This document shows positions 9,474 through 29,299 of a stretch of 32,000 nucleotides of DNA, piece by piece. A model generated the notes under the pieces. That model saw only the letters and a program-made list of their open reading frames with translations. It ran no database searches and was not told the origin of the DNA. The position numbers and the translations under genes were made by a program. The DNA comes from Bermanella sp. WJH001 (GTDB lineage: Bacteria > Pseudomonadota > Gammaproteobacteria > Pseudomonadales > Oceanobacteraceae): contig NZ_CP194951.1 in the NCBI RefSeq assembly GCF_030070105.2, forward strand, positions 965,511 through 997,510, read 5' to 3'. Position 1 is the first letter of the stretch. Each line of letters begins with the position of its first letter.

Positions 9474-9496
9474 AAGGGGCTTCGGCCCCTTTTTTT
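9474..9496 (+). terminator. Rho-independent terminator
   Basis: AAGGGGC-TTCG-GCCCCTT followed by T7. Confidence 0.85.
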
Positions 9497-9520: not shown

Positions 9521-9856
9521 ATGTTAACGGATTTACATTGTGAAATTTGTAATCGTGACTCGGTCAAAGTAACCGAGCAAGAGTGCGCTGAGTATTTAAA
9601 GTTTTTGCCTCACTGGCAAATAATTACAGAGAATAATGTACAAAAATTACGCCGTGAATTTAAATTTACTACATATCAAGCAGGATTGAACTTTACCAAT
9701 CAAGTGGCCGCGTTAGCAGAAGATGAAAACCACCATCCCGATCTGATATTGCAGTGGGGGCGCGTCACGGTAATATGGTGGACACATTCGATAAATGCTT
9801 TGCATAAAAATGATTTTATTTTAGCGGCTAAAACCGATGTTTTATATCAAGATTAA
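9521..9856 (+). CDS. phhB: Pterin-4-alpha-carbinolamine dehydratase
   Basis: About 110 aa. EDENHHPDL...WGRVTVIWWTHS...L..ND is the PCD/DCoH signature. Confidence 0.85.
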   Translation: MLTDLHCEICNRDSVKVTEQECAEYLKFLPHWQIITENNVQKLRREFKFTTYQAGLNFTNQVAALAEDENHHPDLILQWGRVTVIWWTHSINALHKNDFILAAKTDVLYQD

Positions 9857-10197
9857 CGGCTGAGCCGAATGGTACTTACTCTTAACACCCTGCCTTCACA
9901 GCCGTTGGTGATAATGGCCAGCGGCAAGCGGCTCTTGAAAGCCTCAAGGGCTAACAAAAAACGCCTTTGTGCCACCGCATCATATTCACTGTAAACCCGA
10001 TAAACATTGGAAGGCTTGCCACCGCAGTTGTGAATTTTATTACTTGAATGGATATCAAACGGAGCTTCTTCGTCATCTTCGCGCTGCTCTAAGGCACTTA
10101 CCACTAATCCCTCCACAATTTGATCGCTCGACCAAGATATGGCCGAAACTGTGCACATTAGCAGTGAGCAAATAAATATGCGTAATGACATTATCAT
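9853..10197 (-). CDS. Small secreted hypothetical protein (cysteine-containing)
   Basis: Signal peptide (MIM)SLRIFICSLLMCTVSAISWSS. The second ATG at 10191 has the better AGGA spacing. Its stop overlaps the phhB stop (TTAA, 9853-9856). A sigma-28-like promoter lies upstream. Confidence 0.55.
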   Translation of the reverse strand: MIMSLRIFICSLLMCTVSAISWSSDQIVEGLVVSALEQREDDEEAPFDIHSSNKIHNCGGKPSNVYRVYSEYDAVAQRRFLLALEAFKSRLPLAIITNGCEGRVLRVSTIRLSR

Positions 10198-10228: not shown

Positions 10229-10255
10229 CTATCGGCTTATTAACTAAAAACTAAA
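10229..10255 (-). promoter_or_regulatory. Sigma-28 (FliA)-like promoter reading into the 114-aa ORF
   Basis: The minus strand reads TTTAGTTT-N11-GCCGATAG, against the enterobacterial consensus TAAAGTTT-N11-GCCGATAA (13 of 16 positions, exact spacing). It lies about 30 nt upstream of the start codon. Confidence 0.45.
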
Positions 10256-10341
10256 GCTTTTTCAAAACTAAACATAGCGTGTGCTGATGCTTGGACTATG
10301 CTTTGTTTATAAGTGTATGGCGAAAATGGATGATGCCAAGG

Positions 10342-11442
10342 ATGAAGCATAATAACGGACTTTATTCATATAAATATGTAATTTTATCGGCACTATTTTT
10401 TATAGTTTGCGCCATATATTCGTCATATTCTGTGTCTGAAACGCGAGTTGTCACATCGGATGTTCCTGGTTTTGGCTTACCGCCTACCATGTATGCTGGT
10501 TTTTCTCGGCTTCTTGATGACGAAAGTATTTTAGTACCAGAAGAATTGTTAGACGTTGATAAAAATATCAAACGCATTGCCTTTTATTTTAATGGCGATC
10601 GCCTTCACCGAAAAATCCCCAAACAAGTCCACCTGATGATCGAGAATAAACTACTTGGTAAGTTCATGGGCCTTGGTCGTTTTGAAGTGATCGACTGTAT
10701 TGAATGCCGCACCACTCGAGTGAACTTTGAAGATTCCCGCATGCTCATTAGTCAAAGTGCTCAAAGCAACCAAGATTTGCGTAATTTATCCAAAGAAGTG
10801 CGTGCCGATGCCTTCCTGTTATGGAGTGCCAGTGTGCACGAAGAAAAATTCACCATAAATTTACGTCTAGTCAGTGCAAAAAGTAACGAACTGGTTTGGT
10901 TAAAAGAATACGCGAAAAAAACAACCCGTGAGCAAGAAGAGCTTGAATTTGAAAGCATTGAATTAGAAATGGTGGTCAGCTCTTGGGGGCTGGCGGCTGA
11001 ACGAGATGGTGTGGGGGCAGTAGAGGATGCGTCACTCAGTGGTGTAACTGGGTTTGGTATCCGTCGCCGCGAGTACACCACGTTAAATAAAGATGTGGAA
11101 TACAGCTTGGGGGTTGAATACTTCCGTAACTTTTCAAGTACCGATGAATTTAATATCAGCGGTTTTAATTTAGAAGGGCGAATTTTTGTCAACATTTCAG
11201 CGTTGAAAGACTGGGTAAATACCAAGGCCTATGTGGGTATTGGCCAAGCATTTTTTAGTGGCAGCCACGGCTTAATGATGAAGTTTGGATTGGAGTTTCC
11301 CTTTGTGACCAACGGCTTTATGGCCATAGGAGCTGTGTATTTAGTCAAAGAAGAAGTGGAATGGGATAGCAACTCAGATTATGAGGACAGCTCAGAGTTT
11401 GGTGGTGCAGGTTTAGATTTAACACTTGGCTATCGCTTTTAA
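10342..11442 (+). CDS. Putative outer-membrane beta-barrel protein with an N-terminal periplasmic domain (gene 1 of the motor-like operon)
   Basis: Signal peptide MKHNNGLYSYKYVILSALFFIVCAIYSSYSVSE. The C-terminal half shows alternating hydrophobic/G-rich strands and ends in LTLGYRF (terminal aromatic typical of BAM substrates). Start is ambiguous (10291, 10330 or 10342). Confidence 0.7.
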   Translation: MKHNNGLYSYKYVILSALFFIVCAIYSSYSVSETRVVTSDVPGFGLPPTMYAGFSRLLDDESILVPEELLDVDKNIKRIAFYFNGDRLHRKIPKQVHLMIENKLLGKFMGLGRFEVIDCIECRTTRVNFEDSRMLISQSAQSNQDLRNLSKEVRADAFLLWSASVHEEKFTINLRLVSAKSNELVWLKEYAKKTTREQEELEFESIELEMVVSSWGLAAERDGVGAVEDASLSGVTGFGIRRREYTTLNKDVEYSLGVEYFRNFSSTDEFNISGFNLEGRIFVNISALKDWVNTKAYVGIGQAFFSGSHGLMMKFGLEFPFVTNGFMAIGAVYLVKEEVEWDSNSDYEDSSEFGGAGLDLTLGYRF

Positions 11443-11452
11443 GGAATAAAAT

Positions 11453-12082
11453 ATGAAAACCATTTTATTGCCAGTCTTGATCTCAATTAGCGTTTTAGCT
11501 GGCTGCTCCATTGAGCAATTTGCTATGGAAAAAGACCCCTTTGTGGCGCAAAAGCCAGATAAAGACGTGGACCCCTTAACCGTAGACAGTGCCGAATACG
11601 CAAAAAATAATCATGGTCTAGTGAATATTCACCGCCATGGCCCAGGCTATGATGTGATGATGATGTTAAATGCGGGTGAGAGTGACATTATTTTTAGCAT
11701 GGATTTACCAGTCGGTGGTGAAACCTATATGCCTGAAATATCCGAGCAAATGAAAGCCCAGCGTGAAAAAGGAAAAGCGCCAGATAGCATTGAAGAAGAA
11801 AAAGATTTCTTTAACGAAAAAGCACTTTCATTATTTTCAGATGCCACCAAACATATGTTAAGTGCCCAAGCCTTGTTTTATCGTAAGTCCTACTGGAAAG
11901 CATTAGAAGAAACCAATAAAGCCATGTCACTGGTGCCATCGTCTGCGCAAGCTCATGCCCTGAAGGGCAGTATCTATTACAAGATGGGCAGAAAAAAAGA
12001 CGCCAAGGTTTCTTGGCAGCAAGCATTACAATTAGACCCTTCTTTAACGGACGTTAAAGAGAGTTTGAAACTCGTGAAGTAA
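11453..12082 (+). CDS. TPR-repeat lipoprotein (gene 2 of the motor-like operon)
   Basis: Lipobox VLAGC. The C-terminal sequence AQALFYRKSYWKALEETNKAMSLVPSSAQAHALKGSIYYKMGRKKDAKVSWQQALQLDP is TPR-like. AAGGA RBS, 10-nt gap to the upstream gene. Confidence 0.8.
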   Translation: MKTILLPVLISISVLAGCSIEQFAMEKDPFVAQKPDKDVDPLTVDSAEYAKNNHGLVNIHRHGPGYDVMMMLNAGESDIIFSMDLPVGGETYMPEISEQMKAQREKGKAPDSIEEEKDFFNEKALSLFSDATKHMLSAQALFYRKSYWKALEETNKAMSLVPSSAQAHALKGSIYYKMGRKKDAKVSWQQALQLDPSLTDVKESLKLVK

Positions 12083-12091
12083 GGGGCATCT

Positions 12092-14032
12092 ATGTTGAGA
12101 CAATATTTATTAGTAAGCCTTGCTCTAATTAGTATTTCGCTAATGGTTCAAGGAGCGAATAGTCCGGTAGAAGTGCAAACCAAAACCGACGACCTTGAAG
12201 AGATTCAATTAAAATCCCGCTTAGAAGAAAGCTTGGCTCGCGATATACAATCTTACTTAGGGCATAACCGCTTTATTGTGAATGTGAATGTAAGGCTTGA
12301 AAAAATACGTCAGGTGATCAAGAAAAAAAATAAACCAGAAACTAAACCTAATAAGGCATATCAGCCTACTTTTTTACCAAAGTTAACCTTTCCTAATTCG
12401 GTTGAATCAGATGACTCGGAACAAGTGGAAAGCCTGCCTGGTTTGCCGTTTGTTGATATTCCTGGTGATAAAGAAAAAGACGCAGAGCTTCAGTTTATGC
12501 GTGAGCAAATTGAACGCCTTCAAAATGAGCAGCGTCAGCCTAGGTGGCAAAACGGTGAAGGTGATGATGAGAATGGTAATGGCTCAACGGAGGAAACCGT
12601 AGGCGTATTTAATCGCATTGCAAAATTAAAAGTGACCCTTGCGGTTGAAGAAAGTATTAGCTCTGAGCAAGAGGCTTTTTTAAGAAATCTTGTTTATCAA
12701 AAAGCGGCGTTAAATGATTTACGTGGTGATGAATTAAAGATTGTTAAAACACAATTTTCTGCCTTACCCATCAGCGAAAAAGAAATGGCTAATTTGGCCT
12801 CCCCTTATACAGATGAGGCTGCACCTGCTCAAAGCTGGATGGATGAAAATTTTAACGCGCTATTATTAGGCTTGTTGAGTCTGCTTGCTTTGTTGTTAAT
12901 TAGTTTGATTATTTTGTCGTTACGTAAAAAGAATAAACCTAATGATTTACCAGCGGCCATACCTGTGCCTAAGGAACTCAGCGCTGAAAACCCCAAGCCA
13001 GCAGAGCAAGAAGGCCCAGATAATAAACAGATAATGCAAAAAACACGTCAAGAGATTATCTCTTTAGGCTTGGGCCAGCCTCAACATGTGCAAGGCACCA
13101 TGGATCAGTTGTTAAGCCAAGAAGAAAAAATCCCAATGGCGGCCTCTATTTACAAGGTATTAGGGCGCAGTTTATTTCGTTCTATTTTTCCTAATGTGGA
13201 ACAACTGCAACTGCAAAGTATCATGGCTCATTTAGCGGATCAGGCTCCTGATGAAGACCAGCAATTTCAAGATACCCAAGACTTTTATCAGTTGTTGCAA
13301 AAAGCGGTGCAAGAAACAGATGAAGTGAAATCTCATCCGTTTGAATTTTTAGGTAAGTTAAACGACAGCCAAGTGCTGTATTTGATGCAGCATGAAGATG
13401 CACGTATCCAGGCTTTAGTGATTAGTCAGTTGCAAGCACAACAAGCTGCAAGGGTTTTAAATCGAATCAATGAAAAACGCCAAGCCCAAGTGATTGCCGA
13501 ACTTGGCCAGTTTGAAACCTTCCCTCTTGATACCTTTAAGGATGTAGCAGATCGCTTAGCAAAAGCGGCACTTAAGGTTCCAAGCTTTGAAAATGTAAAC
13601 GCTGATGGCCTACACATGCTGATGAATATGTTAGATAACATGAATTCAACAGAAGAAAACAAAGTGCTAAAACGTTTAAAACAAGATAAGCCCGATACCT
13701 TTTATAAATTGCGCCAACAATATTTTACCTTTGCGGATATTGCTAAAACACCAAGGCAAATTCTTAGTAATGCCTTACGTGAAGTGGAACGTAGTTTTAT
13801 TGGGCGTGCCATTTGCGGCACACCGGATGAGTTTAAAATCCATGTTTTATCCTCGCTTACACCAAAACTCAAAGCTTTAGCGCAAGAAGATCTTAAACGC
13901 TATGAGGGACGAATAGCAGCAAAAGACATTGAACCAGCCCGTAAAGCCATTGTGCATAAACTGCGTGAGTACATTCATACGGGTAAATTTTCGATGGATG
14001 AGTTGCAAGCTAAAAAGCAGGCTGAATCATGA
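12092..14032 (+). CDS. Bitopic inner-membrane protein: FliF/YscJ-like ring-building periplasmic domain fused to a FliG-like (middle plus C-terminal) cytoplasmic domain
   Basis: N-terminal hydrophobic anchor. LEESLARDIQSYLGHNRFIVNVNVRLEK and KLKVTLAVEE...LRNLVYQKAALNDLRGDELKIVKTQF resemble FliF/YscJ RBM signatures. TM helix is LLLGLLSLLALLLISLIILSL. The C-terminal ~250 aa are collinear with FliG: FEFLGKLNDSQVLYLMQHEDARIQALVISQLQAQQAARVL..., YFTFADI (MFxF position), and KLKALAQEDLKRYEGR at the torque-helix position. Confidence 0.65.
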   Translation: MLRQYLLVSLALISISLMVQGANSPVEVQTKTDDLEEIQLKSRLEESLARDIQSYLGHNRFIVNVNVRLEKIRQVIKKKNKPETKPNKAYQPTFLPKLTFPNSVESDDSEQVESLPGLPFVDIPGDKEKDAELQFMREQIERLQNEQRQPRWQNGEGDDENGNGSTEETVGVFNRIAKLKVTLAVEESISSEQEAFLRNLVYQKAALNDLRGDELKIVKTQFSALPISEKEMANLASPYTDEAAPAQSWMDENFNALLLGLLSLLALLLISLIILSLRKKNKPNDLPAAIPVPKELSAENPKPAEQEGPDNKQIMQKTRQEIISLGLGQPQHVQGTMDQLLSQEEKIPMAASIYKVLGRSLFRSIFPNVEQLQLQSIMAHLADQAPDEDQQFQDTQDFYQLLQKAVQETDEVKSHPFEFLGKLNDSQVLYLMQHEDARIQALVISQLQAQQAARVLNRINEKRQAQVIAELGQFETFPLDTFKDVADRLAKAALKVPSFENVNADGLHMLMNMLDNMNSTEENKVLKRLKQDKPDTFYKLRQQYFTFADIAKTPRQILSNALREVERSFIGRAICGTPDEFKIHVLSSLTPKLKALAQEDLKRYEGRIAAKDIEPARKAIVHKLREYIHTGKFSMDELQAKKQAES

Positions 14033-14826
14033 TTAGCTTTAGTACGTTAATTGGCATAACCGCAGGTATTGGCTTATTTATTATGGCCATTATCAGTAGC
14101 ACTGATAATTACATGATGTTTATCAGTCTTGCCAGCGCCATGATGGTGATTGGTAGTACCTTTGCAGCGTCGTTGATTAGCTTTAGTTTTTTAGAGGTGA
14201 TGCATGCCATCAAAGCCATGTTTCAAACATTAGCGGCAAGTCGAACCACCCAAGGGCATTTACGTGACTTAGTAAAACGCTTTGTGGAATTTAGTCGTAT
14301 TTATCGTGACGGCGGTATTTCTGCCCTTGAGGACAGTTTAACCAAGCAAGAGAAAAAAGATGAATTTCTGGCGTTAGGTTTGGAGCTAATGGGTTCGGGT
14401 TACAAGCAAAGTGATATTCGCGTGATTATGGGGGATGCCATGGACAGTCATTGGCAGCGCCAAAGTTTAGAAGGCAAAATCCTCAATACCATGGGAGTGT
14501 ATGCACCGGGCTTTGGCATGGTGGGTACAATCGTAGGCTTGATCATCATGCTTGATAACATGGGTGATGATATGGCGAACTTGGGTAAGGGTCTTGCCTT
14601 GGCGTTAATCACCACCTTGTATGGTGTGTTATTGGCCAATTTGTTATTTAAACCCACCGCTGCCCAGGTGACCGAAAAACAAGAGCAGGAATATTTCCGT
14701 AATCAACTGATCACAGATGGGTTTGTATTGCTGGCCGAAAAGAAAGATGCCCTTGTGATGCAAGACCGTCTCAACGCTTATGTTAAACCCACTAAGCGCT
14801 TTACCATAGTTGAAGCCAATGAGTGA
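14029..14826 (+). CDS. MotA/PomA-family stator channel subunit
   Basis: Four-TM layout. Cytoplasmic loop RIYRDGGISALED. YAPGFGMVGTIVGLIIML...GKGLALALITTLYGVLLANLLFKP is the MotA_ExbB signature including the conserved Pro. The start overlaps the upstream stop (ATGA). Confidence 0.88.
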   Translation: MISFSTLIGITAGIGLFIMAIISSTDNYMMFISLASAMMVIGSTFAASLISFSFLEVMHAIKAMFQTLAASRTTQGHLRDLVKRFVEFSRIYRDGGISALEDSLTKQEKKDEFLALGLELMGSGYKQSDIRVIMGDAMDSHWQRQSLEGKILNTMGVYAPGFGMVGTIVGLIIMLDNMGDDMANLGKGLALALITTLYGVLLANLLFKPTAAQVTEKQEQEYFRNQLITDGFVLLAEKKDALVMQDRLNAYVKPTKRFTIVEANE

Positions 14827-15499
14827 TAAGGCCTACAAACGAGGTTTAAGACGTCGCCGGGCCACGTTTGATGCCGATGGTGAAGGCTGGTTGGTCACCT
14901 ATGCGGATGCCATAACCTTGTTATTGGCGTTTTTTGTTATGATTCTTTCAGTGTCTGACTTAAACCAAGGCAAGATAGAGGCATTAAAAGAAGGCTTGGC
15001 CAGTATTATTTCAGGCAAGCAAGCCGAAACCCCGTTTAACGATATTAAAGATGCGCTTAATGACATTGTTGCGCAGCACGATATGCAAGATAACGTGACG
15101 GTGGATATCGACATGAAAGGGGTAAGGGTAGAGTTCTCAAACTTCTCTCTTTATCAATCCGGCAGTGCCGCCATCAAGCCTGAAGCCTTGCCCATGCTGG
15201 CAGAGGTTAGCAAGGTCATCAAAGATACCAGTTCAGCCACCCATTTGATTGAAATCGAAGGCCATACTGATGATGTGCCCATCAGCACAGAGCGTTTCCC
15301 CTCAAATTGGGAGCTAAGCGCCTCACGTGCCAGCAATGTGGTGAAATACCTCATGGGTAAAGGTGTTAATAAGGAGCGCTTAAAGGCTTCTGGTTACGCA
15401 GATTCTCGTCCTAAGGCTAAACTTGAAGAAGGACAGGCCTTCACAGAAGAAGACAGGGCGGCAAATCGGCGTGTGGTGATTTATGTTCGCCGCTTCTGA
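14819..15499 (+). CDS. MotB-family stator subunit with an OmpA-like peptidoglycan-binding domain
   Basis: GWLVTYADAITLLLAFFVMIL is the MotB TM helix with the conserved Asp. IEIEGHTDDVPI...FPSNWELSASRASNVVKYL...ASGYADSRP...NRRVVI is the OmpA/MotB C-domain. ATG at 14819 overlaps the motA-like end by 8 nt. Confidence 0.88.
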   Translation: MSDKAYKRGLRRRRATFDADGEGWLVTYADAITLLLAFFVMILSVSDLNQGKIEALKEGLASIISGKQAETPFNDIKDALNDIVAQHDMQDNVTVDIDMKGVRVEFSNFSLYQSGSAAIKPEALPMLAEVSKVIKDTSSATHLIEIEGHTDDVPISTERFPSNWELSASRASNVVKYLMGKGVNKERLKASGYADSRPKAKLEEGQAFTEEDRAANRRVVIYVRRF

Positions 15500-24869: not shown

Positions 24870-24992
24870 TGAAATCGCCATAGAAGATTGGGTCAAAAAT
24901 TATTTTTTTTGTTGGAAAGTTGGAACAGCTTTTGAATAGTCAAAGCAAAGTGACAACATAACAACAAATAAACATTGGCGGGGCAATTAGCT

Positions 24993-25964
24993 ATGGCAGC
25001 TATCAAGGGACTTAAAAAAAACGAAGCAGATTCTGACTTAGCACTTGTAGACGCTGAAGAAGAAACGGCAGAAAAAGAAGAAGTGATTGAAGAAATTGCA
25101 CAAGATACGGAAGTGCAGAAAAACCTAGATGCAACTCAGTTATATTTAAATGAAATTGGCTTTTCGCCACTACTGACTCCAGAAGAAGAAGTACACTTTG
25201 CACGCCTTGCTCGTAAAGGGGACGAAAAAGGCCGCAAACGTATGATTGAAAGTAACCTTCGCCTAGTTGTTAAAATATCACGTCGTTATGTTAATCGCGG
25301 TTTAACTCTTTTAGACCTAATTGAAGAAGGTAATCTTGGCCTAATTCGCGCGGTTGAAAAATTTGATCCAGAACGCGGTTTCCGCTTTTCAACCTACGCC
25401 ACTTGGTGGATTCGTCAAACCATTGAACGAGCCATCATGAATCAGACTCGTACCATCCGTTTACCCATTCATGTTGTTAAAGAATTGAATGTGTATTTAC
25501 GCGCCGCCCGCGAATTGACTCAAAAATTAGACCATGAGCCAAGTGCTGAAGAAATAGCAGAATTATTAGAAAAACCAGTGAGCGATGTAAAACGCATGCT
25601 GGGCTTAAATGAACGTGTCACCTCGGTGGACTCTCCTCTGGGTTACAACAGTGAAAAATCGGTATTAGATACCATTGCAGATGAGTCCATTAGTGACCCT
25701 TGCCAAGTCCTACAAGACGATGACATCAGCTCAAGCCTTGACCAATGGCTTGATGATCTGACTGAAAAACAACGTGAAGTGATTTCCCGCCGTTTTGGCC
25801 TTAGGGGATATGAAACCAGCACACTAGAAGAAGTTGGCCATGAGATCGGTTTGACCCGTGAACGTGTTCGCCAAATTCAAGTAGAAGCCTTAAAACGCAT
25901 GCGCGAAATTATGGAAAAACACGGCCTAAATGCCAGTGCCATATTTGGCGTGCAAGAAGCGTAA
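24993..25964 (+). CDS. rpoS: RNA polymerase sigma factor RpoS (sigma-38)
   Basis: [58 protein letters not shown] and [20 protein letters not shown]. Position after nlpD. ATG at 24993 preferred over TTG at 24975. Confidence 0.95.
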
Positions 25965-25995
25965 CCGAACATACTCATCGATTCGAGTGTATTTG

Positions 25996-26022
25996 AACCC
26001 GCCCTAGTTGGCGGGTTTTTTT
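25996..26022 (+). terminator. Rho-independent terminator of rpoS
   Basis: AACCCGCC-CTAGTT-GGCGGGTT followed by a T-run. Confidence 0.88.
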
Positions 26023-26255
26023 ATTCCTGTTTTATAACTGAACCATTTTGCCACTGGAGCCGCCCCTCTTGACGACCTCAAGCTAAAAAACAAACCCCCA
26101 AGGCTCATAATCATCAAGCCTGAAAAATACAGTCATGAGTAATTTAAGCGCGCAAGGCTAATAAGCAATTACAGATAAGGGCTGTCTTAATGACGGGTTT
26201 TTTCATGGTGTGGCTTAATGCTATGATGTGCCTCTAAATAAAAGGTAAGTGTTAT

Positions 26256-26633
26256 ATGTCTAAATCTTTCGAAGCTCAGGGTGTTGTTCATTCCATCGGT
26301 GCCACCACAGAATACGGTAACAACGGCTTTACTAAGCGTGAGTTTGTCATCCAGTTAACCGGTGATGGCGAAAACCCAGATTACCCAAATTTTGTCGCTT
26401 TAGAGTTAATCAAAGACAAGTGTGCACTTATGGATAATTACAACATTGGTGATGAGATCACTGTGCACTTCAACCTATCTGGACGTCTATGGAACGCCCC
26501 TGGCAAGCCAGAGAAATGTTTTACTAGTCTACAAGCATGGCGCATTGAAAGTGGCGCACAGGCTCAACAAGGGGCGCCAGCGTTTGATCAGTCACAGCCA
26601 GGTCACGGCTTTGATGACGACGTACCGTTTTAG
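26256..26633 (+). CDS. DUF3127-like small protein (OB-fold-like)
   Basis: GVVHSIGATTEYGNNGFTKREFVIQ...YPNFVALELIKDKCALMD.YNIGDEITVHFNLSGRLWN...FTSLQAWRIE matches my memory of the DUF3127 pattern. Confidence 0.7.
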   Translation: MSKSFEAQGVVHSIGATTEYGNNGFTKREFVIQLTGDGENPDYPNFVALELIKDKCALMDNYNIGDEITVHFNLSGRLWNAPGKPEKCFTSLQAWRIESGAQAQQGAPAFDQSQPGHGFDDDVPF

Positions 26634-26650
26634 AGGTCACCTATGATAAT

Positions 26651-26680
26651 AGCCGCCATGCCAAGGGCGGCTTTTATTCT
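26651..26680 (+). terminator. Rho-independent terminator
   Basis: AGCCGCC-ATGCCAAG-GGCGGCT followed by TTTTATT. Confidence 0.75.
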
Positions 26681-26772
26681 TCGAGGTATGTGAAATTCAT
26701 ATGCTCTTAGTAGTGCCAATCGAGCACATTTGGTAAGCTGAGCTATTAATCTGTACCTGCTGAGCCTTTGTT

Positions 26773-28410
26773 ATGCCCATCGAAATTGCTATTTACGCTG
26801 CCATCATCGCGACATTTTCCACTGGTGTATTTATTATGCACCGCCAGTTTGCCCAACAACGCCAAGCCTTTTTGCAAGAAAAACAGGCACTGGAGCAAGT
26901 TAACCAAGGGCTGGTTCACAACCAAGAGCAATACCGCAATCAGTTACAACAGGTTCAAACCCAGCTTGCCTTAAGTGAAAATCAAGCAGACAACAGCAAG
27001 CAGCAGCTTCAGCAAGTGCAACAAAGCTTGCAGCAAGCTCAAACTCAATTAGAACTAAACCGTAGCCAATTAAGCCAAGCCGAAGGCCAGCTTAAGCATC
27101 AACAAGCCACATTAGAACAACGTGAACTGGATGTGCAAAAGCTTGCGCAAAAAGAAGCTTTAATAGAGACGCTCAATACCCAATTGAGTGACCTAAAAAC
27201 CCAGCTCAACCAAGAACAAGTGGAGCGTCAAAAAGATCAGCAAAATCTTGAAGAGAAGCTTGAATTGCTGCAAGCCAATAAAGCCCAATTGAGTCAAGAA
27301 TTTGAAAACCTATCTAATAAAATATTTGAAGAGAAAAACAAACAATTCAAACAAACCTCACAAGAAGGTTTGAGTAGTTTATTAAACCCATTTAAAGACC
27401 AACTTGAAGGCTTACGTAAAAAAGTAGATGACGTTTACGTAGAAGAAAGTAAAGACCGTGCTGCTCTTAAAGCTCAAATTGGCGAGTTACATAATTTAAA
27501 TAAGCAAATCACAGAAGAAGCGGCCTCATTGGCGCGGGCGTTACGTGGTGAAAAGAAAACCCAAGGTAACTGGGGCGAACTAGTTTTAGAAACCGTATTG
27601 GAAAAATCCGGTTTGCGCCAAGGTGAAGAATTTACCCGTGAAAAAAGCATTAATAATGACGAGGGTACGCGTTATCGCCCAGACGTTATTATTAACTTAC
27701 CAGAAGATAAACATATTGTGGTGGATGCTAAAGTATCTTTAAACGCCTACACAGATTACATCAATGCAGAAAACGATGCAGACCGTATACGCTTTCTAAA
27801 GCAACATGTAGATGCGGTGCGTATGCACATTAAAACGCTGGCCGATAAGTCTTACGCTAAATTACCAGGTGTAAATAGTCCGGATTTTGTTTTCATGTTT
27901 ATGCCAATTGAACCGGCTTTTATGATTGCATTTGAGCATGATGATAAATTATTTAATGACGCGTTTGAGCAACGTATTGTGGTGGTAACGCCAACCACCT
28001 TATTGGCCAGTTTGCGTACGGTTTCCAGCTTATGGAGTATTGAGCGTCAAAATAAGAGCGCCAAACAGTTAGCGGATCAAGCTGCAAAAGTGCATGACAA
28101 GTTAGTCGGTTTTGTCGAAAGTATGGAGAAAGTCGGTGCCCAGTTACATACCGTACAAGGAACCTACGATAAAGCGTGGAGCCAACTTAAAGAAGGCCGT
28201 GGTAACTTAATAAGCCAAGCCCATAAATTCAAAGACCTAGGTGTGCGCACGAAAAAAGAATTATCGTCACAGGTGACCGAGTCCGCTGAACTTGAGTTTG
28301 AAGATGACGAAGCAAAAAGCCTTGTCATAGAAAAACCGAAGGCCAAAAAAGATAAACACGCCGACAGTGCGGTTATCCCACAAACGGCATTTGAATTAAG
28401 CGATGATTAA
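26773..28410 (+). CDS. rmuC: DNA recombination protein RmuC
   Basis: N-terminal TM, a long Q-rich coiled coil, then the RmuC nuclease-like core: GNWGELVLETVLEKSGL, RPDVIINLPEDKHIVVDAKVSL, FVFMFMPIEPAF and VVTPTTLLASLRTV. Confidence 0.92.
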   Translation: MPIEIAIYAAIIATFSTGVFIMHRQFAQQRQAFLQEKQALEQVNQGLVHNQEQYRNQLQQVQTQLALSENQADNSKQQLQQVQQSLQQAQTQLELNRSQLSQAEGQLKHQQATLEQRELDVQKLAQKEALIETLNTQLSDLKTQLNQEQVERQKDQQNLEEKLELLQANKAQLSQEFENLSNKIFEEKNKQFKQTSQEGLSSLLNPFKDQLEGLRKKVDDVYVEESKDRAALKAQIGELHNLNKQITEEAASLARALRGEKKTQGNWGELVLETVLEKSGLRQGEEFTREKSINNDEGTRYRPDVIINLPEDKHIVVDAKVSLNAYTDYINAENDADRIRFLKQHVDAVRMHIKTLADKSYAKLPGVNSPDFVFMFMPIEPAFMIAFEHDDKLFNDAFEQRIVVVTPTTLLASLRTVSSLWSIERQNKSAKQLADQAAKVHDKLVGFVESMEKVGAQLHTVQGTYDKAWSQLKEGRGNLISQAHKFKDLGVRTKKELSSQVTESAELEFEDDEAKSLVIEKPKAKKDKHADSAVIPQTAFELSDD

Positions 28411-28450
28411 ATCAAGATAGTTTGAATCTTCTATATTAAAAGGATGTTGT

Positions 28451-29299
28451 ATGGCGAGTCACTTAACCGAAAAAGAAAGTAATTCTGTCATTGATCAAAA
28501 GCGTTTTGCATTTTTAGAGTTGCTTTTAATTTGGGAAGGGCGCATTCAGCCAAAACACCTTGCACAACAATTTGAGCTAGGCGAAAAGCTCGCCAAGCAT
28601 GTTATTCAAAAGTATAAAAACCTTTACCCTGAAAATATTCAATATCACGGTGCCAGTGATAGTTATCAGGCCGGTTTAAATATGCTGGCACAATTTACAA
28701 ATGGCACGTTGCAAGAATACATGCAGTATATGGCCAATACTGAAACCGTATCCAGTTTAGAGTTGCCTAATCGGAATTTACAACCTGCATTAGTGCGTCC
28801 TATCTTACAAGCCATCCGCGAAAAATTGAGATTAAAGATTGGATATGCATCGGTCTCAAACCCTAATTTCGTAGAGCGTGTTATCCAACCCCACCATTTG
28901 GTATTTGACGGTATGCGTTGGCATGTTCGTGGTTATTGTGAAAACAATCAGGGCTACCGTGATTTTGTATTGAGTCGCTTTCAGCCTGACACACCTGCAC
29001 AATTGTTGGATGGTGCAGACCAGTTTGATATTCAAGATGAGGTTTGGCACAACCTGTTAAACGTTGAGTTTATGCCGGACCCAAGGTTAGATGAGAATCG
29101 CGCTCGCATTATTGCATTAGATTACGACATGCCGCTTACCAGTCATGGATATCGTAAAACGCAACAAGTACGCCAAGCTTTGTTGATGTATTGGGTGCAG
29201 CGTATGGGCCTGAATCAATATCATAACAATCCACAAGCACAGCAGATTATTTTGACGCCCGAATGTGATCAGGCGTTGAAAGAGTATTTACCCAGCTAA
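28451..29299 (+). CDS. WYL-domain transcriptional regulator (wHTH + WYL)
   Basis: The N-terminus FAFLELLLIWEGRIQPKHLAQQFELGEKLAKHVIQ is HTH-like. IGYASVSNPNFVERVIQPHHLVFDGMRWHVRGYCENNQGYRDFVLSRF is a WYL-domain pattern. AAGGA RBS 40 nt after rmuC. Confidence 0.75.
   Translation: MASHLTEKESNSVIDQKRFAFLELLLIWEGRIQPKHLAQQFELGEKLAKHVIQKYKNLYPENIQYHGASDSYQAGLNMLAQFTNGTLQEYMQYMANTETVSSLELPNRNLQPALVRPILQAIREKLRLKIGYASVSNPNFVERVIQPHHLVFDGMRWHVRGYCENNQGYRDFVLSRFQPDTPAQLLDGADQFDIQDEVWHNLLNVEFMPDPRLDENRARIIALDYDMPLTSHGYRKTQQVRQALLMYWVQRMGLNQYHNNPQAQQIILTPECDQALKEYLPS

What the first reader, a model, noticed from the sequence alone, without database searches (positions are those of the whole stretch)
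12092..14032. Natural FliF-like/FliG-like fusion that keeps torque-helix charges but lacks the FliM-binding EHPQ motif
The topology mimics FliF: N-terminal hydrophobic anchor, a ~235-aa periplasmic region, a second TM (LLLGLLSLLALLLISLIILSL), then cytoplasm. The periplasmic part is far shorter than FliF. It carries LEESLARDIQSYLG...VNVNVRLEK and KLKVTLAVEE...ALNDLRGDELKIVKTQF, which resemble RBM signatures such as the FliF ...RGDxVxV..F motif. FliF normally recruits FliG non-covalently, but here the cytoplasmic ~370 aa are themselves FliG-like. Aligned from memory to E. coli FliG without gaps, LQNEHPQTIALILSYL corresponds to LMQHEDARIQALVISQL, so the EHPQ FliM-contact motif is lost. MFVF corresponds to YFTF. 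The torque helix RAADILRDDLANRGPVR corresponds to KLKALAQEDLKRYEGRI, so the basic...acidic-acidic...basic charge pattern that contacts MotA is retained. This suggests a rotor that engages a stator but has no C-ring or switch complex.
Basis: partly seen in the sequence, partly recalled or inferred. Interest (0 to 1): 0.85.

Follow-up and report, generated by a model that had tools for sequence, protein, structure and literature searches.

The report
Flagellum-less FliF–FliG rotor with own stator
A single gene fuses the ring-forming part of the flagellar membrane ring (FliF) to the torque-receiving rotor protein (FliG), and sits in a conserved five-gene operon with its own MotA/MotB ion motor, a lipoprotein and an outer-membrane protein but no other flagellar parts; this looks like an undescribed, stripped-down relative of the flagellar motor whose job is unknown.

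Summary
ORF 12092–14032 (646 aa) has four parts: a probable signal peptide, a FliF RBM3/β-collar-type periplasmic domain, one TM helix, and a FliG-like cytoplasmic region. FliG_M and FliG_C are significant; FliG_N-likeness rests on fold coverage only.

The FliM-binding EHPQR motif is replaced by (H/E)EDxR. The two key stator-contact positions are kept: K592 (R281 equivalent) and D/E600 (D289 equivalent). The adjacent flagellar-type MotA keeps the partner residues R93 and E101, and MotB keeps its channel Asp, plug and OmpA domain.

The gene is the third of five translationally coupled genes: a small OM β-barrel with an LpoB-like domain, a TPR lipoprotein, the fusion, MotA and MotB. All five are collinear in every locus that covers them, among 38 Saccharospirillaceae-type genome loci and four metagenome loci. 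The set recurs, sometimes reordered, in Vibrio sp. SCSIO 43136 and in Fibrobacterota-type contigs. An exhaustive search finds 156 representative clusters at E<1e-30, nearly all with this architecture.

The window holds no other flagellar genes. RBM1 and RBM2, which house the export gate, are absent.

Best reading: a switchless, export-less, ion-driven rotor–stator machine linked to the outer membrane, with unknown output. Rotation is inferred, not shown. I found no description beyond a very different chlamydial FliF–FliG fusion and engineered fusions.

The parts
10342..11442 (+). Gene 1: outer-membrane protein. It has a signal peptide, a periplasmic LpoB/TolB-N/PelC-like α/β domain (weak FlgO hit) and a C-terminal small OmpX/Ail/OmpA-type β-barrel ending in …GYRF. 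The start is uncertain: TTG 10291, ATG 10330, 10333 or 10342.
   Evidence: ORF. AF2 model pLDDT 79. Foldseek hits Ail, NspA, OmpA and OmpX at E~1e-5, and LpoB, TolB and PelC at E~1e-4. Pfam FlgO E=0.002, below cutoff. Always adjacent to the fusion gene in the clade, and its profile hits neighbours of distant fusion genes.
11453..12082 (+). Gene 2: TPR lipoprotein with lipobox VLAG|C and Ser at +2, so probably sorted to the outer membrane.
   Evidence: Pfam TPR_1/2/11. N-terminus MKTILLPVLISISVLAGCS. Profile hits the gene next to the fusion in L043, L045, L046, L047, L048 and L049.
12092..14032 (+). Gene 3: the FliF(RBM3)–FliG fusion protein, 646 aa (the finding).
12092..12157 (+). aa 1–22: probable Sec signal peptide (…MVQG|AN), not a retained FliF-type TM1.
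   Evidence: Family N-termini show AxA-type sites followed by a conserved mature N-terminus. Inference; no signal-peptide predictor was available.
12191..12328 (+). aa 34–79: first half of the RBM3-like module, helix 34–56 and long strand 61–79.
   Evidence: AF2 secondary structure. Pfam YscJ_FliF_C alignment covers 54–222. Weak top hit to SpoIIIAG α1β1, E=0.25.
12329..12583 (+). aa 80–164: insertion between the two RBM3 halves, at the position of the FliF β-collar insertion. It is mostly low-confidence and acidic/Pro-rich. It carries the near-invariant LPGL(P) motif (aa 115–118, nt 12434–12445) and an amphipathic helix at 127–148.
   Evidence: (L125/P131/G127 of 137 family members).
12584..12757 (+). 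aa 165–222: second half of RBM3 (long strand, helix, strand) with the FliF-type RGD…F motif (R211 G212 D213 … F222).
   Evidence: Formal alignment to Salmonella FliF 380–446, RGDTLNVVNSPF. RGD is near-invariant in 137 members.
12860..12922 (+). aa 257–277: the single transmembrane helix, the equivalent of FliF TM2.
   Evidence: Hydropathy peak. AF2 helix 249–279. Aligns with FliF TM2 spacing.
13022..13321 (+). aa 311–410: conserved helical region (motifs RQEIISLGLGQPQ and YKVLGRSLFRS). It may be a FliG-N-like domain or a remnant of the FliF C-terminal helix.
   Evidence: Foldseek alignments to full-length FliG span 315–330 columns. No sequence support: PDB profile search found nothing and hhalign gave probability 2%.
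13367..13579 (+). aa 426–496: FliG middle domain. EHPQR is replaced by HEDAR(I) at aa 434–439.
   Evidence: Pfam FliG_M 47.6 bits. Alignments to FliG. Conservation.
13673..13993 (+). aa 528–634: FliG C-terminal domain, including the YFTF hinge (544–547) and the torque helix (aa 591–604, nt 13862–13903) with K592, E599 and D600.
   Evidence: Pfam FliG_C 63.4 bits. Foldseek 1qc7 rmsd 1.8 Å and 8ucs_H rmsd 1.9 Å. Conservation.
14029..14826 (+). Gene 4: flagellar-type MotA/PomA-like stator A subunit, 265 aa. The start overlaps the fusion's stop (ATGA). The rotor-contact loop has R93 and E101. Channel residues are T167, T195 and T196.
   Evidence: Pfam MotA_ExbB. NCBIfam MotP, MotA and PomA at 137–164 bits against ExbB and TolQ at 17. 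PDB 8ucs_C E=2.6e-34 and PomA E=1e-29. Conservation.
14810..15499 (+). Gene 5: MotB-like stator B subunit, with TM Asp33, plug and an OmpA-type peptidoglycan-binding domain. It overlaps the end of MotA.
   Evidence: Pfam MotB_plug and OmpA. NCBIfam MotD, MotS and MotB. D33 invariant in 45 of 45.
10278..10305 (+). Conserved element TAGC(G)…N17…CTATGCT about 40 nt upstream of gene 1. Candidate promoter or operator of the operon, type unknown.
   Evidence: Alignment of 13 upstream regions. Coordinates are approximate.

Best explanation
The five genes 10342–15499 encode a flagellum-independent, envelope-spanning machine built from flagellar motor parts.

Proposed mechanism:
1. After signal-peptide cleavage, the fusion protein is a single-pass inner-membrane protein.
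2. Its periplasmic RBM3/β-collar module oligomerises into an S-ring-like ring. In FliF, RBM3 alone suffices for ring formation.
3. This places one FliG-like domain per subunit on the cytoplasmic face, forming a built-in 1:1 rotor.
4. The operon's own MotA5B2-type stator units anchor to peptidoglycan through MotB. They use ion flow (Asp33 and Thr167/195/196) to push on the FliG-like torque helix through the conserved pairs MotA R93–rotor D/E600 and MotA E101–rotor K592, turning the ring.
5. RBM1 and RBM2 are missing, so there is no housing for a type III export gate. The FliM-binding EHPQR motif is not conserved, so there is no rod, hook, filament or switch complex, and rotation would be unidirectional.
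6. The output is taken in the periplasm, most plausibly through the collar insertion with its invariant LPGL motif, by the TPR lipoprotein and the OM β-barrel/LpoB-like protein. This couples inner-membrane torque to the outer membrane or cell surface.

Shown here: the homologies, the residue conservation, the operon structure, and conservation of the module across lineages. Inferred: ring formation, rotation, absence of a C-ring, and the output path. The physiological role is unknown. My guess is a cell-surface or envelope process, because several relatives have very large adhesin-like or PorP/SprF-like neighbours.
For: Identity of the parts:
- FliG_M and FliG_C are significant; the FliG profile E=5.6e-21 and FliF E=1.4e-5.
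- Foldseek matches full-length FliG at E=1e-10 and FliF S-ring structures at E~1e-4, with SpoIIIAG also listed.
- The FliF RGD…F motif and TM2 spacing align.

Stator:
- It is flagellar-type, not ExbB/TolQ-type (137–164 bits vs 17).
- The best PDB hit is the MotA of the MotAB–FliG complex 8ucs.

Contact residues:
- MotA R93 in 40/44, E101 in 42/44; MotB D33 in 45/45.
- Rotor K592 in 36/36 and position 600 D/E in 36/36 within the clade. Position 592 is basic in 119/137 of the broad family.
- Both pairs are kept in the window clade, Vibrio and L051.
- The accepted pairs R90–D289 and E98–R281 are as stated in PMC7564593 and PMC12505986.

Operon: gaps are ≤10 nt with SD motifs, and there are ATGA and 8–17-nt overlaps.

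Module conservation:
- All five genes are collinear in every locus that covers them, among 38 genome loci and 4 metagenome loci of the clade.
- The same five genes occur in a different order in L043, L048 and L049 (Fibrobacterota-type), and in the window's order in Vibrio sp. SCSIO 43136.
- Gene 1 and gene 2 profiles hit those neighbours.
- There are 156 representative clusters at E<1e-30, almost all 560–720 aa.

Other support:
- RBM3 forms rings without RBM1 or RBM2, and the RBM2 ring houses the export gate (PMC11739650).
- Engineered FliF–FliG fusions assemble rings (PMC11481574, PMC10941966, PDB 8z4d).
- There are no other flagellar genes in the 32-kb window.
- Gene 1 is an OM barrel plus LpoB-like domain, and gene 2 is a lipoprotein.
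Against: - No experiment or oligomer prediction shows ring formation or rotation.
- The window protein's own FliF Pfam score is below cutoff (21.1 vs 23.8 bits).
- Only 3 of the 5 classical FliG charged residues are kept. In the Fibrobacterota-type loci the MotA Arg and the rotor acidic residue are often both absent, so the electrostatic interface is not universal in the family.
- Two distant family members have no MotAB nearby (L044, L047).
- The hosts of the window clade are flagellated (my own knowledge of Oleispira, Thalassolituus and Bermanella). Host FliM/FliN could in principle still bind, or the module could serve the flagellum.
- A σ28-like promoter lies next door, though it points at a different gene.
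- The output partners are assigned by gene adjacency only.
Confidence: 0.6

Rival explanations
1. Non-rotating scaffold or regulator. The membrane-anchored FliG-like ring (or smaller oligomer) is a docking platform that activates, stores or titrates stator units. It could be a peptidoglycan-anchored ion leak, a mechanosensor, or a decoy that modulates the cell's real flagellar motor. No mechanical work is transmitted to the outer membrane.
For: Rotation is not shown by anything here. The hosts of the window clade have flagella (own knowledge), and flagellar stators are known to exchange dynamically. The FliM-binding motif is lost, which fits a non-switching, possibly non-motor role. In some distant loci the MotA/FliG charge pairs are degenerate.
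Against: The operon carries its own dedicated MotAB, with plug, Asp and rotor-contact residues under strong conservation. A decoy would not need these, nor a periplasmic S-ring, a TPR lipoprotein and an OM protein that are co-inherited in all loci. The module also occurs in Fibrobacterota-type genomes; that order is non-flagellated as far as I know.
Confidence: 0.2
2. Accessory structure of the host's ordinary polar flagellum, for example an extra ring or second rotor associated with the basal body (compare Vibrio FlgO/FlgP/FlgT and MotX/MotY), rather than an independent machine.
For: Gene 1 has a weak FlgO-type hit and an LpoB/TolB-N-like fold. A near-consensus σ28-type promoter lies in the divergent intergenic region. 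The stator is of the PomA/MotP type.
Against: The σ28-like promoter faces the other way and would drive the 114-aa gene. There are no flagellar genes in the window or in the flanks of any relative. An RBM3 ring of its own and a full FliG-like domain duplicate, rather than complement, the basal body. The module is present in Fibrobacterota-type contigs.
Confidence: 0.12
3. Decaying relic or annotation artefact: a frameshifted or read-through fliF–fliG remnant with no function.
For: fliF and fliG are adjacent in flagellar operons, and spontaneous in-frame fusions arise in the laboratory (cited in PMC4768692).
Against: The full-length architecture is conserved from 96% down to about 25–38% identity in more than 150 representative clusters, with invariant motifs along the whole protein. 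The genes are translationally coupled to intact partners.
Confidence: 0.03
4. Generic ARM/MgtE_N-type cytoplasmic domain on an unrelated membrane protein, with the resemblance to FliG and FliF superficial.
For: MgtE_N gives a weak hit (16.2 bits). FliG and MgtE_N are distantly related helical repeats.
Against: FliG_C scores 63.4 bits and FliG_M 47.6 bits, both above cutoffs. PDB and Foldseek hits are all FliG, and MgtE appears only at E=0.23. The torque-helix register and the MFXF hinge are conserved. A flagellar-type stator is adjacent.
Confidence: 0.02

Closest known systems
Flagellar rotor–stator core: FliF MS-ring plus FliG with MotAB/PomAB stator units
   Same: RBM3/β-collar module with the RGD…F motif followed by a TM helix. 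FliG_M and FliG_C with the MFXF-type hinge and a torque helix carrying the R281 and D288/D289 equivalents. A 4-TM MotA with the R90 and E98 equivalents. MotB with plug, Asp and an OmpA-like domain.
   Different: One polypeptide instead of two. No RBM1 or RBM2, hence no seat for the export gate. An N-terminal signal peptide instead of TM1. EHPQR is not conserved. The K264 and R297 equivalents are lost. There are no fliE, fliHIJ, fliMN, flhAB, fliPQR, rod, hook or filament genes nearby. The partners are a TPR lipoprotein and an OM barrel instead. Scores are far below the NCBIfam FliG, MotA and MotB equivalog cutoffs.
Engineered or spontaneous FliF–FliG fusions of Salmonella and Vibrio (PDB 8z4d/8z4g; PMC11481574; PMC10941966; Francis 1992 and Thomas 2001 as cited in PMC4768692)
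   Same: Covalent 1:1 FliF–FliG that still assembles rings. This is a proof of principle that such a fusion is mechanically viable.
   Different: Those are laboratory constructs of full-length FliF (RBM1–3, two TMs) inside complete flagella. This is a natural, truncated, widely conserved gene in a non-flagellar operon.
Chlamydiaceae natural FliF–FliG fusion (Bergeron 2016, PMC4768692)
   Same: A natural fusion of a shortened FliF to FliG-like sequence, in an organism or context without a flagellum.
   Different: The chlamydial protein is about 330 aa, keeps RBM2 plus one further RBM, and lacks the SpoIIIAG-like RBM3. Its cytoplasmic tail resembles only FliG_M. It has no torque-helix domain and no MotAB partner, and it is thought to relate to the injectisome. 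The protein here is the complementary case: RBM3 only, FliG M and C domains, and its own stator.
SpoIIIAG ring of the sporulation channel
   Same: RBM3-type fold with a β-insertion that forms a large ring. It appears among the Foldseek hits and as the weak top sequence hit for the first RBM half.
   Different: No FliG-like domain, no stator, and a Firmicute sporulation context.
Non-flagellar 5:2 ion-driven motors: GldLM (T9SS and gliding), AglRQS–Glt (Myxococcus gliding), ExbBD–TonB, TolQR–TolA–Pal, Zorya ZorAB
   Same: An inner-membrane ion-driven MotAB-family motor coupled through the periplasm to OM proteins, TPR lipoproteins or adhesins. Some relatives have large adhesin-like or PorP/SprF-like neighbours.
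   Different: Those systems use ExbB/TolQ-type or specialised A subunits and transmit force through an extended B-subunit or TonB/TolA-like rod. None uses a FliG-type rotor ring. Here the stator is of the flagellar type. PADLOC finds no Zorya partners.

Membership tests
FliG (flagellar rotor/switch protein; PF14842+PF14841+PF01706; TIGR00207) | FliG middle domain (ARM_M) | tested here: met
   Pfam FliG_M 47.6 bits against cutoff 25, aa 426–496. Foldseek 4fq0_C rmsd 1.2 Å.
FliG (flagellar rotor/switch protein; PF14842+PF14841+PF01706; TIGR00207) | FliG C-terminal domain with torque helix | tested here: met
   Pfam FliG_C 63.4 bits against cutoff 23.3, aa 528–634. Foldseek 1qc7 rmsd 1.8 Å and 8ucs_H rmsd 1.9 Å.
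FliG (flagellar rotor/switch protein; PF14842+PF14841+PF01706; TIGR00207) | Charged stator-contact residues (E. coli K264, R281, D288, D289, R297) | tested here: inconclusive
   R281 corresponds to K592 (invariant), D288 to E599 (E/S/A), and D289 to D600 (always D or E). K264 corresponds to an invariant Cys575 and R297 to Ala609. The two pairs regarded as key are present; two of the five residues are not.
FliG (flagellar rotor/switch protein; PF14842+PF14841+PF01706; TIGR00207) | EHPQR FliM-binding motif in the middle domain | tested here: not met
   It aligns to HEDAR(I). Only the Glu is conserved (124/137). The other positions vary across the family.
FliG (flagellar rotor/switch protein; PF14842+PF14841+PF01706; TIGR00207) | FliG N-terminal domain that binds the FliF C-terminus | tested here: inconclusive
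   Foldseek alignments to full-length FliG span 315–330 columns. There is no sequence support: one search found nothing and hhalign gave probability 2%. The Pfam FliG_N hit falls on the M region.
FliG (flagellar rotor/switch protein; PF14842+PF14841+PF01706; TIGR00207) | Equivalog-level score (TIGR00207 ≥226.7 bits) | tested here: not met
   73 bits, covering only model positions 106–325.
FliF (MS-ring protein; PF01514+PF08345) | RBM3/β-collar (S-ring) module with C-terminal RGD…F motif before TM2 | tested here: met
   Family profile against FliF 6scn gives E=1.4e-5. Formal alignment to FliF 380–446. Foldseek S-ring structures at E~1e-4, TMt ~0.5. PF08345 is in the precomputed Pfam list of the ~38%-identical relatives. 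The window protein itself scores 21.1 bits against cutoff 23.8.
FliF (MS-ring protein; PF01514+PF08345) | RBM1 and RBM2 (SctJ-homology region, PF01514) that form the inner ring housing the export gate | tested here: not met
   No PF01514 hit. The periplasmic region is only about 230 aa and is fully accounted for by the RBM3 halves plus the insertion.
FliF (MS-ring protein; PF01514+PF08345) | Two transmembrane helices (N-in, C-in hairpin topology) | tested here: inconclusive
   There is one clear TM (aa 257–277). The N-terminal hydrophobic stretch has signal-peptide features. No predictor was available.
FliF (MS-ring protein; PF01514+PF08345) | Assembles a ~33–34-mer ring | not testable with these tools
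   Only monomer prediction was offered. The literature says RBM3 alone forms rings (PMC11739650).
Flagellar-type stator MotAB/PomAB | MotA with four TMs and a cytoplasmic loop carrying the R90 and E98 equivalents | tested here: met
   End-to-end alignment to 8ucs_C, 6ysf and PomA 8bri. R93 and E101 are conserved in 40/44 and 42/44.
Flagellar-type stator MotAB/PomAB | MotB with TM Asp, plug helix and OmpA-like peptidoglycan-binding domain | tested here: met
   Pfam MotB_plug 53 bits and OmpA 65 bits. D33 in 45/45.
Flagellar-type stator MotAB/PomAB | Equivalog-level score to a named flagellar stator (NCBIfam) | tested here: not met
   The best MotA-side score is MotP at 164 bits against cutoff 394. 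The best MotB-side score is MotD at 185 against 283. This is a divergent branch of the flagellar type.
Chlamydial FliF–FliG fusion | ~330 aa; RBM2-type periplasmic region; only a FliG_M-like tail | tested here: not met
   The protein here is 646 aa, has RBM3 only, and has FliG M and C domains. The chlamydial description is from PMC4768692.
Zorya anti-phage system | Long ZorA with tail, plus ZorC/D/E partners | tested here: not met
   ZorA scores only 14.8 bits. The other three proteins have no PADLOC hit. The ZorB hits reflect generic MotB similarity.

The most novel reading that the evidence does not exclude
This is a previously unrecognised class of ion-driven rotary machine. It is a self-contained FliF(RBM3)::FliG ring turned by dedicated flagellar-type stators and coupled to the outer membrane by a TPR lipoprotein and an OM barrel. 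It operates without any type III export apparatus, rod or switch, and it is present in non-flagellated lineages (Fibrobacterota) as well as in flagellated marine gammaproteobacteria. It would be either a radical exaptation of the flagellar motor for a surface or envelope function, or a surviving relative of the pre-flagellar rotor–stator module.
Probability: 0.4. Interest if true: 0.92.

Novelty: new variant of a known kind. Interest (0 to 1): 0.82.

Why it matters
The FliG–MotA interface is so far known only as the engine of the flagellum. A conserved operon that keeps only the ring-forming module, the torque-receiving domain and the stator, and replaces everything else with outer-membrane partners, has several consequences.

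1. It would show that the flagellar rotor–stator pair can work as a portable module.
2. It would offer a minimal, naturally 1:1 and probably unidirectional rotor for structural and single-molecule work, free of the symmetry mismatch and switching complications.
3. It gives a concrete handle on whether rotor–stator coupling and type III export are separable in evolution, in either direction.
4. It points to an unknown envelope or surface function. The carriers named in the source records include Oleispira and Thalassolituus, which I know as oil degraders. Fibrobacterota are known to me for cellulose degradation. Both live on insoluble substrates; that ecological link is my speculation.

A cultured carrier, Vibrio sp. 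SCSIO 43136, and the sequenced Oleispira antarctica RB-8 make this experimentally accessible.

Tried and rejected
- **Literature.** Ten full-text searches found no description of this operon. They returned only engineered fusions and the chlamydial case. The Fibrobacter proteomics paper concerns an unrelated TonB/ExbBD cluster.
- **Zorya or another defence system.** Rejected.
- **Generic MgtE_N/ARM domain.** Rejected.
- **Canonical flagellar FliF or FliG.** Rejected on the missing RBM1/2, sub-equivalog scores and gene context.
- **Relic or artefact.** Rejected on conservation.
- **Sequence evidence for a FliG_N domain or a FliF C-terminal helix in aa 300–425.** None found.
- **Whether LPGL is a FliF collar motif.** Not resolved. 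The profile of aa 28–128 found only a weak SpoIIIAG match that does not reach the motif.
- **Organism names for distant loci through exact look-up of their housekeeping neighbours.** No names were returned. The taxonomy of L043–L049 and L051 rests on two 'Fibrobacterales/Fibrobacteres' names and a Fib_succ_major neighbour.
- **σ70, σ54 and σ28 patterns for the operon promoter.** No convincing match on the + strand.
- **A script timeout and a bad coordinate.** Both were repeated successfully.
- **Gene 1 start.** I first used 10345, one codon after the ATG at 10342. No result is affected.

Full report
**1. The observation**

Hydropathy shows only two hydrophobic segments: the N-terminus and aa 257–277.

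**2. The cytoplasmic half is FliG**

- Pfam gives FliG_C (aa 528–634, 63.4 bits, E=2.8e-17) and FliG_M (aa 426–496, 47.6 bits, E=1.9e-12). Both are well above their cutoffs. MgtE_N scores only 16.2 bits.
- NCBIfam's FliG equivalog aligns to model positions 106–325 at 73 bits, far below its 226.7-bit cutoff. This is a FliG homologue, not an orthodox FliG.
- A 36-sequence family profile (A1) hits the solved FliG structures at E=5.6e-21 to 1e-17.
- The AlphaFold2 model (mean pLDDT 72.8; folded parts 77–91) matches FliG chains with Foldseek at E=1e-10. FliG_C 1qc7 superposes at 1.8 Å, and the FliG fragment of the MotAB–FliG complex 8ucs at 1.9 Å. MgtE appears only at E=0.23.
- The Foldseek alignments to full-length FliG span 315–330 columns. 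This suggests that aa ~311–410 also mimic FliG_N. However, neither a PDB profile search of that region nor hhalign against Aquifex FliG_N (probability 2%) supports this. I leave FliG_N as inconclusive.

**3. The periplasmic half is the FliF S-ring module only**

- Pfam YscJ_FliF_C covers aa 54–222 at 21.1 bits (cutoff 23.8) in the window protein. It is in the precomputed Pfam list of the ~38%-identical relatives.
- The family profile hits Salmonella FliF at E=1.4e-5.
- A formal alignment puts …KIkkLtvtLvv…eqeeFlrnlv…lRGDelnivkteF on FliF 380–446 (DIERLSVAVVV…RGDTLNVVNSPF), followed by the TM helix at the same spacing.
- The model has helix 34–56, a long strand 61–79, an ~85-residue largely disordered insertion, a long strand 165–186, helix 191–204 and strand 214–220. 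This is an RBM split by an insertion, as in FliF RBM3 with its β-collar.
- Foldseek returns the RBM3/collar ('S-ring') structures of Salmonella and Vibrio (E=1e-4 to 3e-3, target-normalised TM ~0.45–0.52) and SpoIIIAG.
- There is no PF01514 hit and no room for RBM1 or RBM2.
- According to PMC11739650, neither RBM1 nor RBM2 is needed for RBM3-ring formation, and the RBM2 ring is what accommodates the export complex. This protein keeps the ring-former and has lost the seat of the type III gate.
- The N-terminal hydrophobic stretch is preceded by one or two basic residues. Across the family it ends in AxA-type sites (VQA|AD, VWA|AN, AYA|ET, ASA|ET) followed by a conserved mature N-terminus. I read it as a cleaved signal peptide, giving a single-pass protein. 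This is an inference.

**4. Motifs**

Alignment with Thermotoga and Aquifex FliG gives the following.

| Flagellar feature | In this protein | Conservation |
|---|---|---|
| EHPQ(T/R) | HEDAR | Only the Glu is conserved family-wide (124/137) |
| MFVF / MFTF hinge | YFTF | — |
| R281 | K592 | Invariant in the clade; R or K in 119/137 of the broad family |
| D288 | E599 | E, S or A in the clade |
| D289 | D600 | D or E in 36/36 of the clade |
| K264 | Cys575 | Invariant Cys in the clade |
| R297 | Ala609 | Variable |

The accepted contacts are MotA R90–FliG D289 and MotA E98–FliG R281 (PMC7564593 abstract; PMC12505986). Both rotor partners are therefore present.

**5. The stator**

- The next two genes overlap the fusion gene and each other (ATGA at 14029–14032; MotB start inside the end of MotA).
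- The 265-aa MotA aligns end to end with C. sporogenes MotA (8ucs and 6ysf, E=2.6e-34) and Vibrio PomA (E=1e-29).
- It scores 137–164 bits on the NCBIfam MotP, MotA and PomA models, against 17 bits for ExbB and TolQ.
- Its loop 'sriyRDggisalED' aligns to PomA 'daaRKGGFLALEE'. So R93 and E101 are the equivalents of PomA R88/E96 and E. coli R90/E98.
- Across 44 orthologues R93 is Arg in 40 and E101 is Glu in 42. The three channel threonines and MotB Asp33 are invariant.
- MotB has the plug and an OmpA-type domain.

**6. The operon and its partners**

- A strong terminator follows fumarase (9474–9491). Next come a pterin dehydratase gene and a divergent 114-aa gene. Then five genes run from about 10342 to 15499 with 9–10-nt gaps containing SD motifs, or with overlaps.
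- Gene 1 has no Pfam domain and only clade-restricted 'hypothetical' homologues. Its model (pLDDT 79) is a periplasmic α/β domain plus a C-terminal β-barrel ending in GYRF.
- Foldseek matches the barrel to Ail, NspA, OmpA and OmpX (E~1e-5), and the other domain to LpoB, TolB-N and PelC (E~1e-4). This fits a weak FlgO hit.
- Gene 2 is a TPR protein with a lipobox (LAG|CS).
- On paper the five products span the cytoplasm, inner membrane, peptidoglycan and outer membrane.

**7. Distribution**

- The genome scan found the fusion gene in 38 genomes: Bermanella, Oceaniserpentilla, Thalassolituus, Oleispira, Oceanobacter, Bacterioplanoides and Saccharospirillaceae MAGs.
- In every locus that covers them, all five genes are collinear and sit just downstream of fumarase. 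The module is therefore vertically inherited.
- Between the Bermanella and Oleispira groups the fusion protein is the fastest evolving component (~38% identity). MotA is at 65%, MotB at 60%, gene 1 at 55% and gene 2 at 49%.
- An exhaustive HMM search of 1.84 billion representatives found 156 clusters at E<1e-30. Nearly all are 560–720 aa and match from the second RBM half through the FliG C-terminus.
- In a 137-sequence alignment the RGD motif, an LPGL motif inside the insertion and the first-half Y/F positions are near-invariant. The whole architecture is therefore shared.

Sampled contexts:

| Locus | Gene order |
|---|---|
| L043, L048, L049 | fusion – gene-1-like – TPR – MotA – MotB |
| Vibrio sp. 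SCSIO 43136 chromosome CP071849.1 | surface-Ig-like protein – gene-1-like – TPR – fusion – MotA – MotB |
| L045 | 1798-aa adhesin-like protein – 83-aa ORF – OprF-like protein (also hit by the gene-2 TPR profile) – fusion – MotAB |
| L046 | gene-1-like protein – two TPR proteins (one with a weak FliF_C hit) – fusion – MotAB |
| L051 | TPR – fusion – MotAB – MoxR/DUF58/VWA |
| L044 | fusion followed by a KAP NTPase; no adjacent stator |
| L047 | gene 1 – TPR – fusion – PorP/SprF-like |

- For L043, L048 and L049, relatives are named Fibrobacterales or Fibrobacteres, and there is a Fib_succ_major neighbour.
- Profiles of genes 1 and 2 detect the neighbours in the distant loci: E=2e-11 to 1e-6 for gene 1 and 1e-13 to 1e-20 for gene 2.
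- In the gammaproteobacterial versions both charge pairs are intact. In the Fibrobacterota-type loci the MotA Arg and the rotor acidic residue tend to be missing together. This is suggestive of co-variation, but the loop alignments there are uncertain.

**8. Interpretation**

The best-supported reading is an independent rotor–stator machine. An RBM3 ring carries one FliG-like domain per subunit and is driven by its own flagellar-type stators. It lacks an export gate, axial structure and switch, and is coupled to outer-membrane partners.

- **Shown:** the homologies, the conservation of contact residues on both partners, the operon structure, and the conservation of the module across lineages.
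- **Inferred:** oligomerisation (from FliF biology and engineered FliF–FliG rings: PMC11481574, PMC10941966, PDB 8z4d), rotation, absence of a C-ring, and the output path.
- **Rivals:** a static stator-docking or regulatory ring; an accessory of the host's polar flagellum; a relic; a generic ARM domain. They are weighed in the rival list, and the last two are effectively excluded.

**9. Comparison and novelty**

- The only natural FliF–FliG fusion I could find in the literature is the chlamydial one (PMC4768692). It is structurally complementary rather than similar: it has RBM2 and a FliG_M-like tail, no RBM3, no FliG_C and no stator.
- Public annotations of this family read 'hypothetical protein', 'FliG C-terminal domain-containing protein' or, wrongly, 'flagellar motor switch protein FliG'.
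- The recent survey of MotAB relatives treats flagellar-type stators as flagellar (PMC12505986).
- I therefore rate it a new variant of a known kind (flagellar rotor–stator). There is a substantial chance that it is a new class of machine.

**10. Limits**

- There was no multimer prediction, no whole-genome access to test for flagellar genes in the Fibrobacterota-type hosts, and no organism names for several distant contigs.
- Two fold libraries were unavailable.
- The literature library does not cover most subscription journals.

Noticed in passing
window 10229–10255 (minus strand): A near-consensus σ28/FliA-type promoter: TTTAGTTT, an 11-nt spacer, then GCCGATAG. The consensus TAAAGTTT-N11-GCCGATAA is from my own knowledge. 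It points at the divergent 114-aa secreted-protein gene (9853–10197, no Pfam hit). Both halves are conserved in 13 Bermanella-group upstream regions. This suggests the small neighbour belongs to the flagellar regulon, although the five-gene operon is transcribed the other way.
   Followed up: partly
window ~10278–10305 (+): An invariant TAGC(G)…N17…CTATGCT element about 40 nt upstream of gene 1 in all 13 aligned relatives. It matches no σ70, σ54 or σ28 consensus. It may be the operon's promoter or an operator.
   Followed up: partly
window 12434–12445 (aa 115–118 of the fusion protein): The LPGL(P) motif is the most conserved feature of the periplasmic region across 137 distant family members (L 125, P 131, G 127). 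Yet it lies in a segment that AlphaFold models with pLDDT <50. This fits a partner-binding or ring-interface motif. Whether canonical FliF has an equivalent could not be established.
   Followed up: partly
window 13814–13816 (Cys575): The position equivalent to the E. coli FliG charged residue K264 is an invariant cysteine in all 36 clade members. It is hydrophobic or variable in the wider family.
   Followed up: no
window 14527–14529 (T167) and 14611–14616 (T195–T196), MotA: The MotA-like protein has threonines at the positions of PomA T158, T185 and T186, and they are invariant in 44 orthologues. In Vibrio these residues are linked to Na+ coordination (my own knowledge). The hosts are marine, so the motor may be sodium-driven. 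This was not tested.
   Followed up: no
L001 13537–17850; L003 13562–17890: In the Oleispira/Thalassolituus branch, three or four further genes follow MotB in the same orientation. L003 has three: 633 aa without Pfam hits, a 507-aa PF27085 Aq_1262 protein, and 251 aa. L001 has four: 119, 519, 523 and 245 aa. They are absent from the window, where pyrG follows directly. They could be lineage-specific accessories of the module.
   Followed up: no
L045 529–5925; L050 4845–7190; L047 2–3532 and 7303–8715; L043 15221–18982: Several distant versions of the module sit next to very large surface or adhesin-like proteins (PKD/cadherin/Big_1/invasin domains, Bact_surface_Ig-like, TPR plus transglutaminase) or a PorP/SprF-like OM barrel. 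This hints at a cell-surface output.
   Followed up: no
L044 10001–13709: A 771-aa family member occurs without any MotAB nearby and is followed by a KAP-family NTPase. Its FliG_M hit is only faint. It may be a functionally diverged offshoot.
   Followed up: no
L018 (whole locus); protein P0185: A contig labelled 'Crocinitomicaceae bacterium' (Bacteroidota MAG) carries the Bermanella-type synteny, with fumarase and pyrG 91–93% identical to the window. A gene-1 homologue is labelled 'Psychrobacter glaciei'. Both look like mis-binned or mislabelled contigs rather than real occurrences in those taxa.
   Followed up: no
window 24975–29299: Downstream of rpoS lie a DUF3127 protein (26256–26633), RmuC (26773–28410) and a WYL-domain protein (28451–29299). 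They are unrelated to the finding and were not examined.
   Followed up: no
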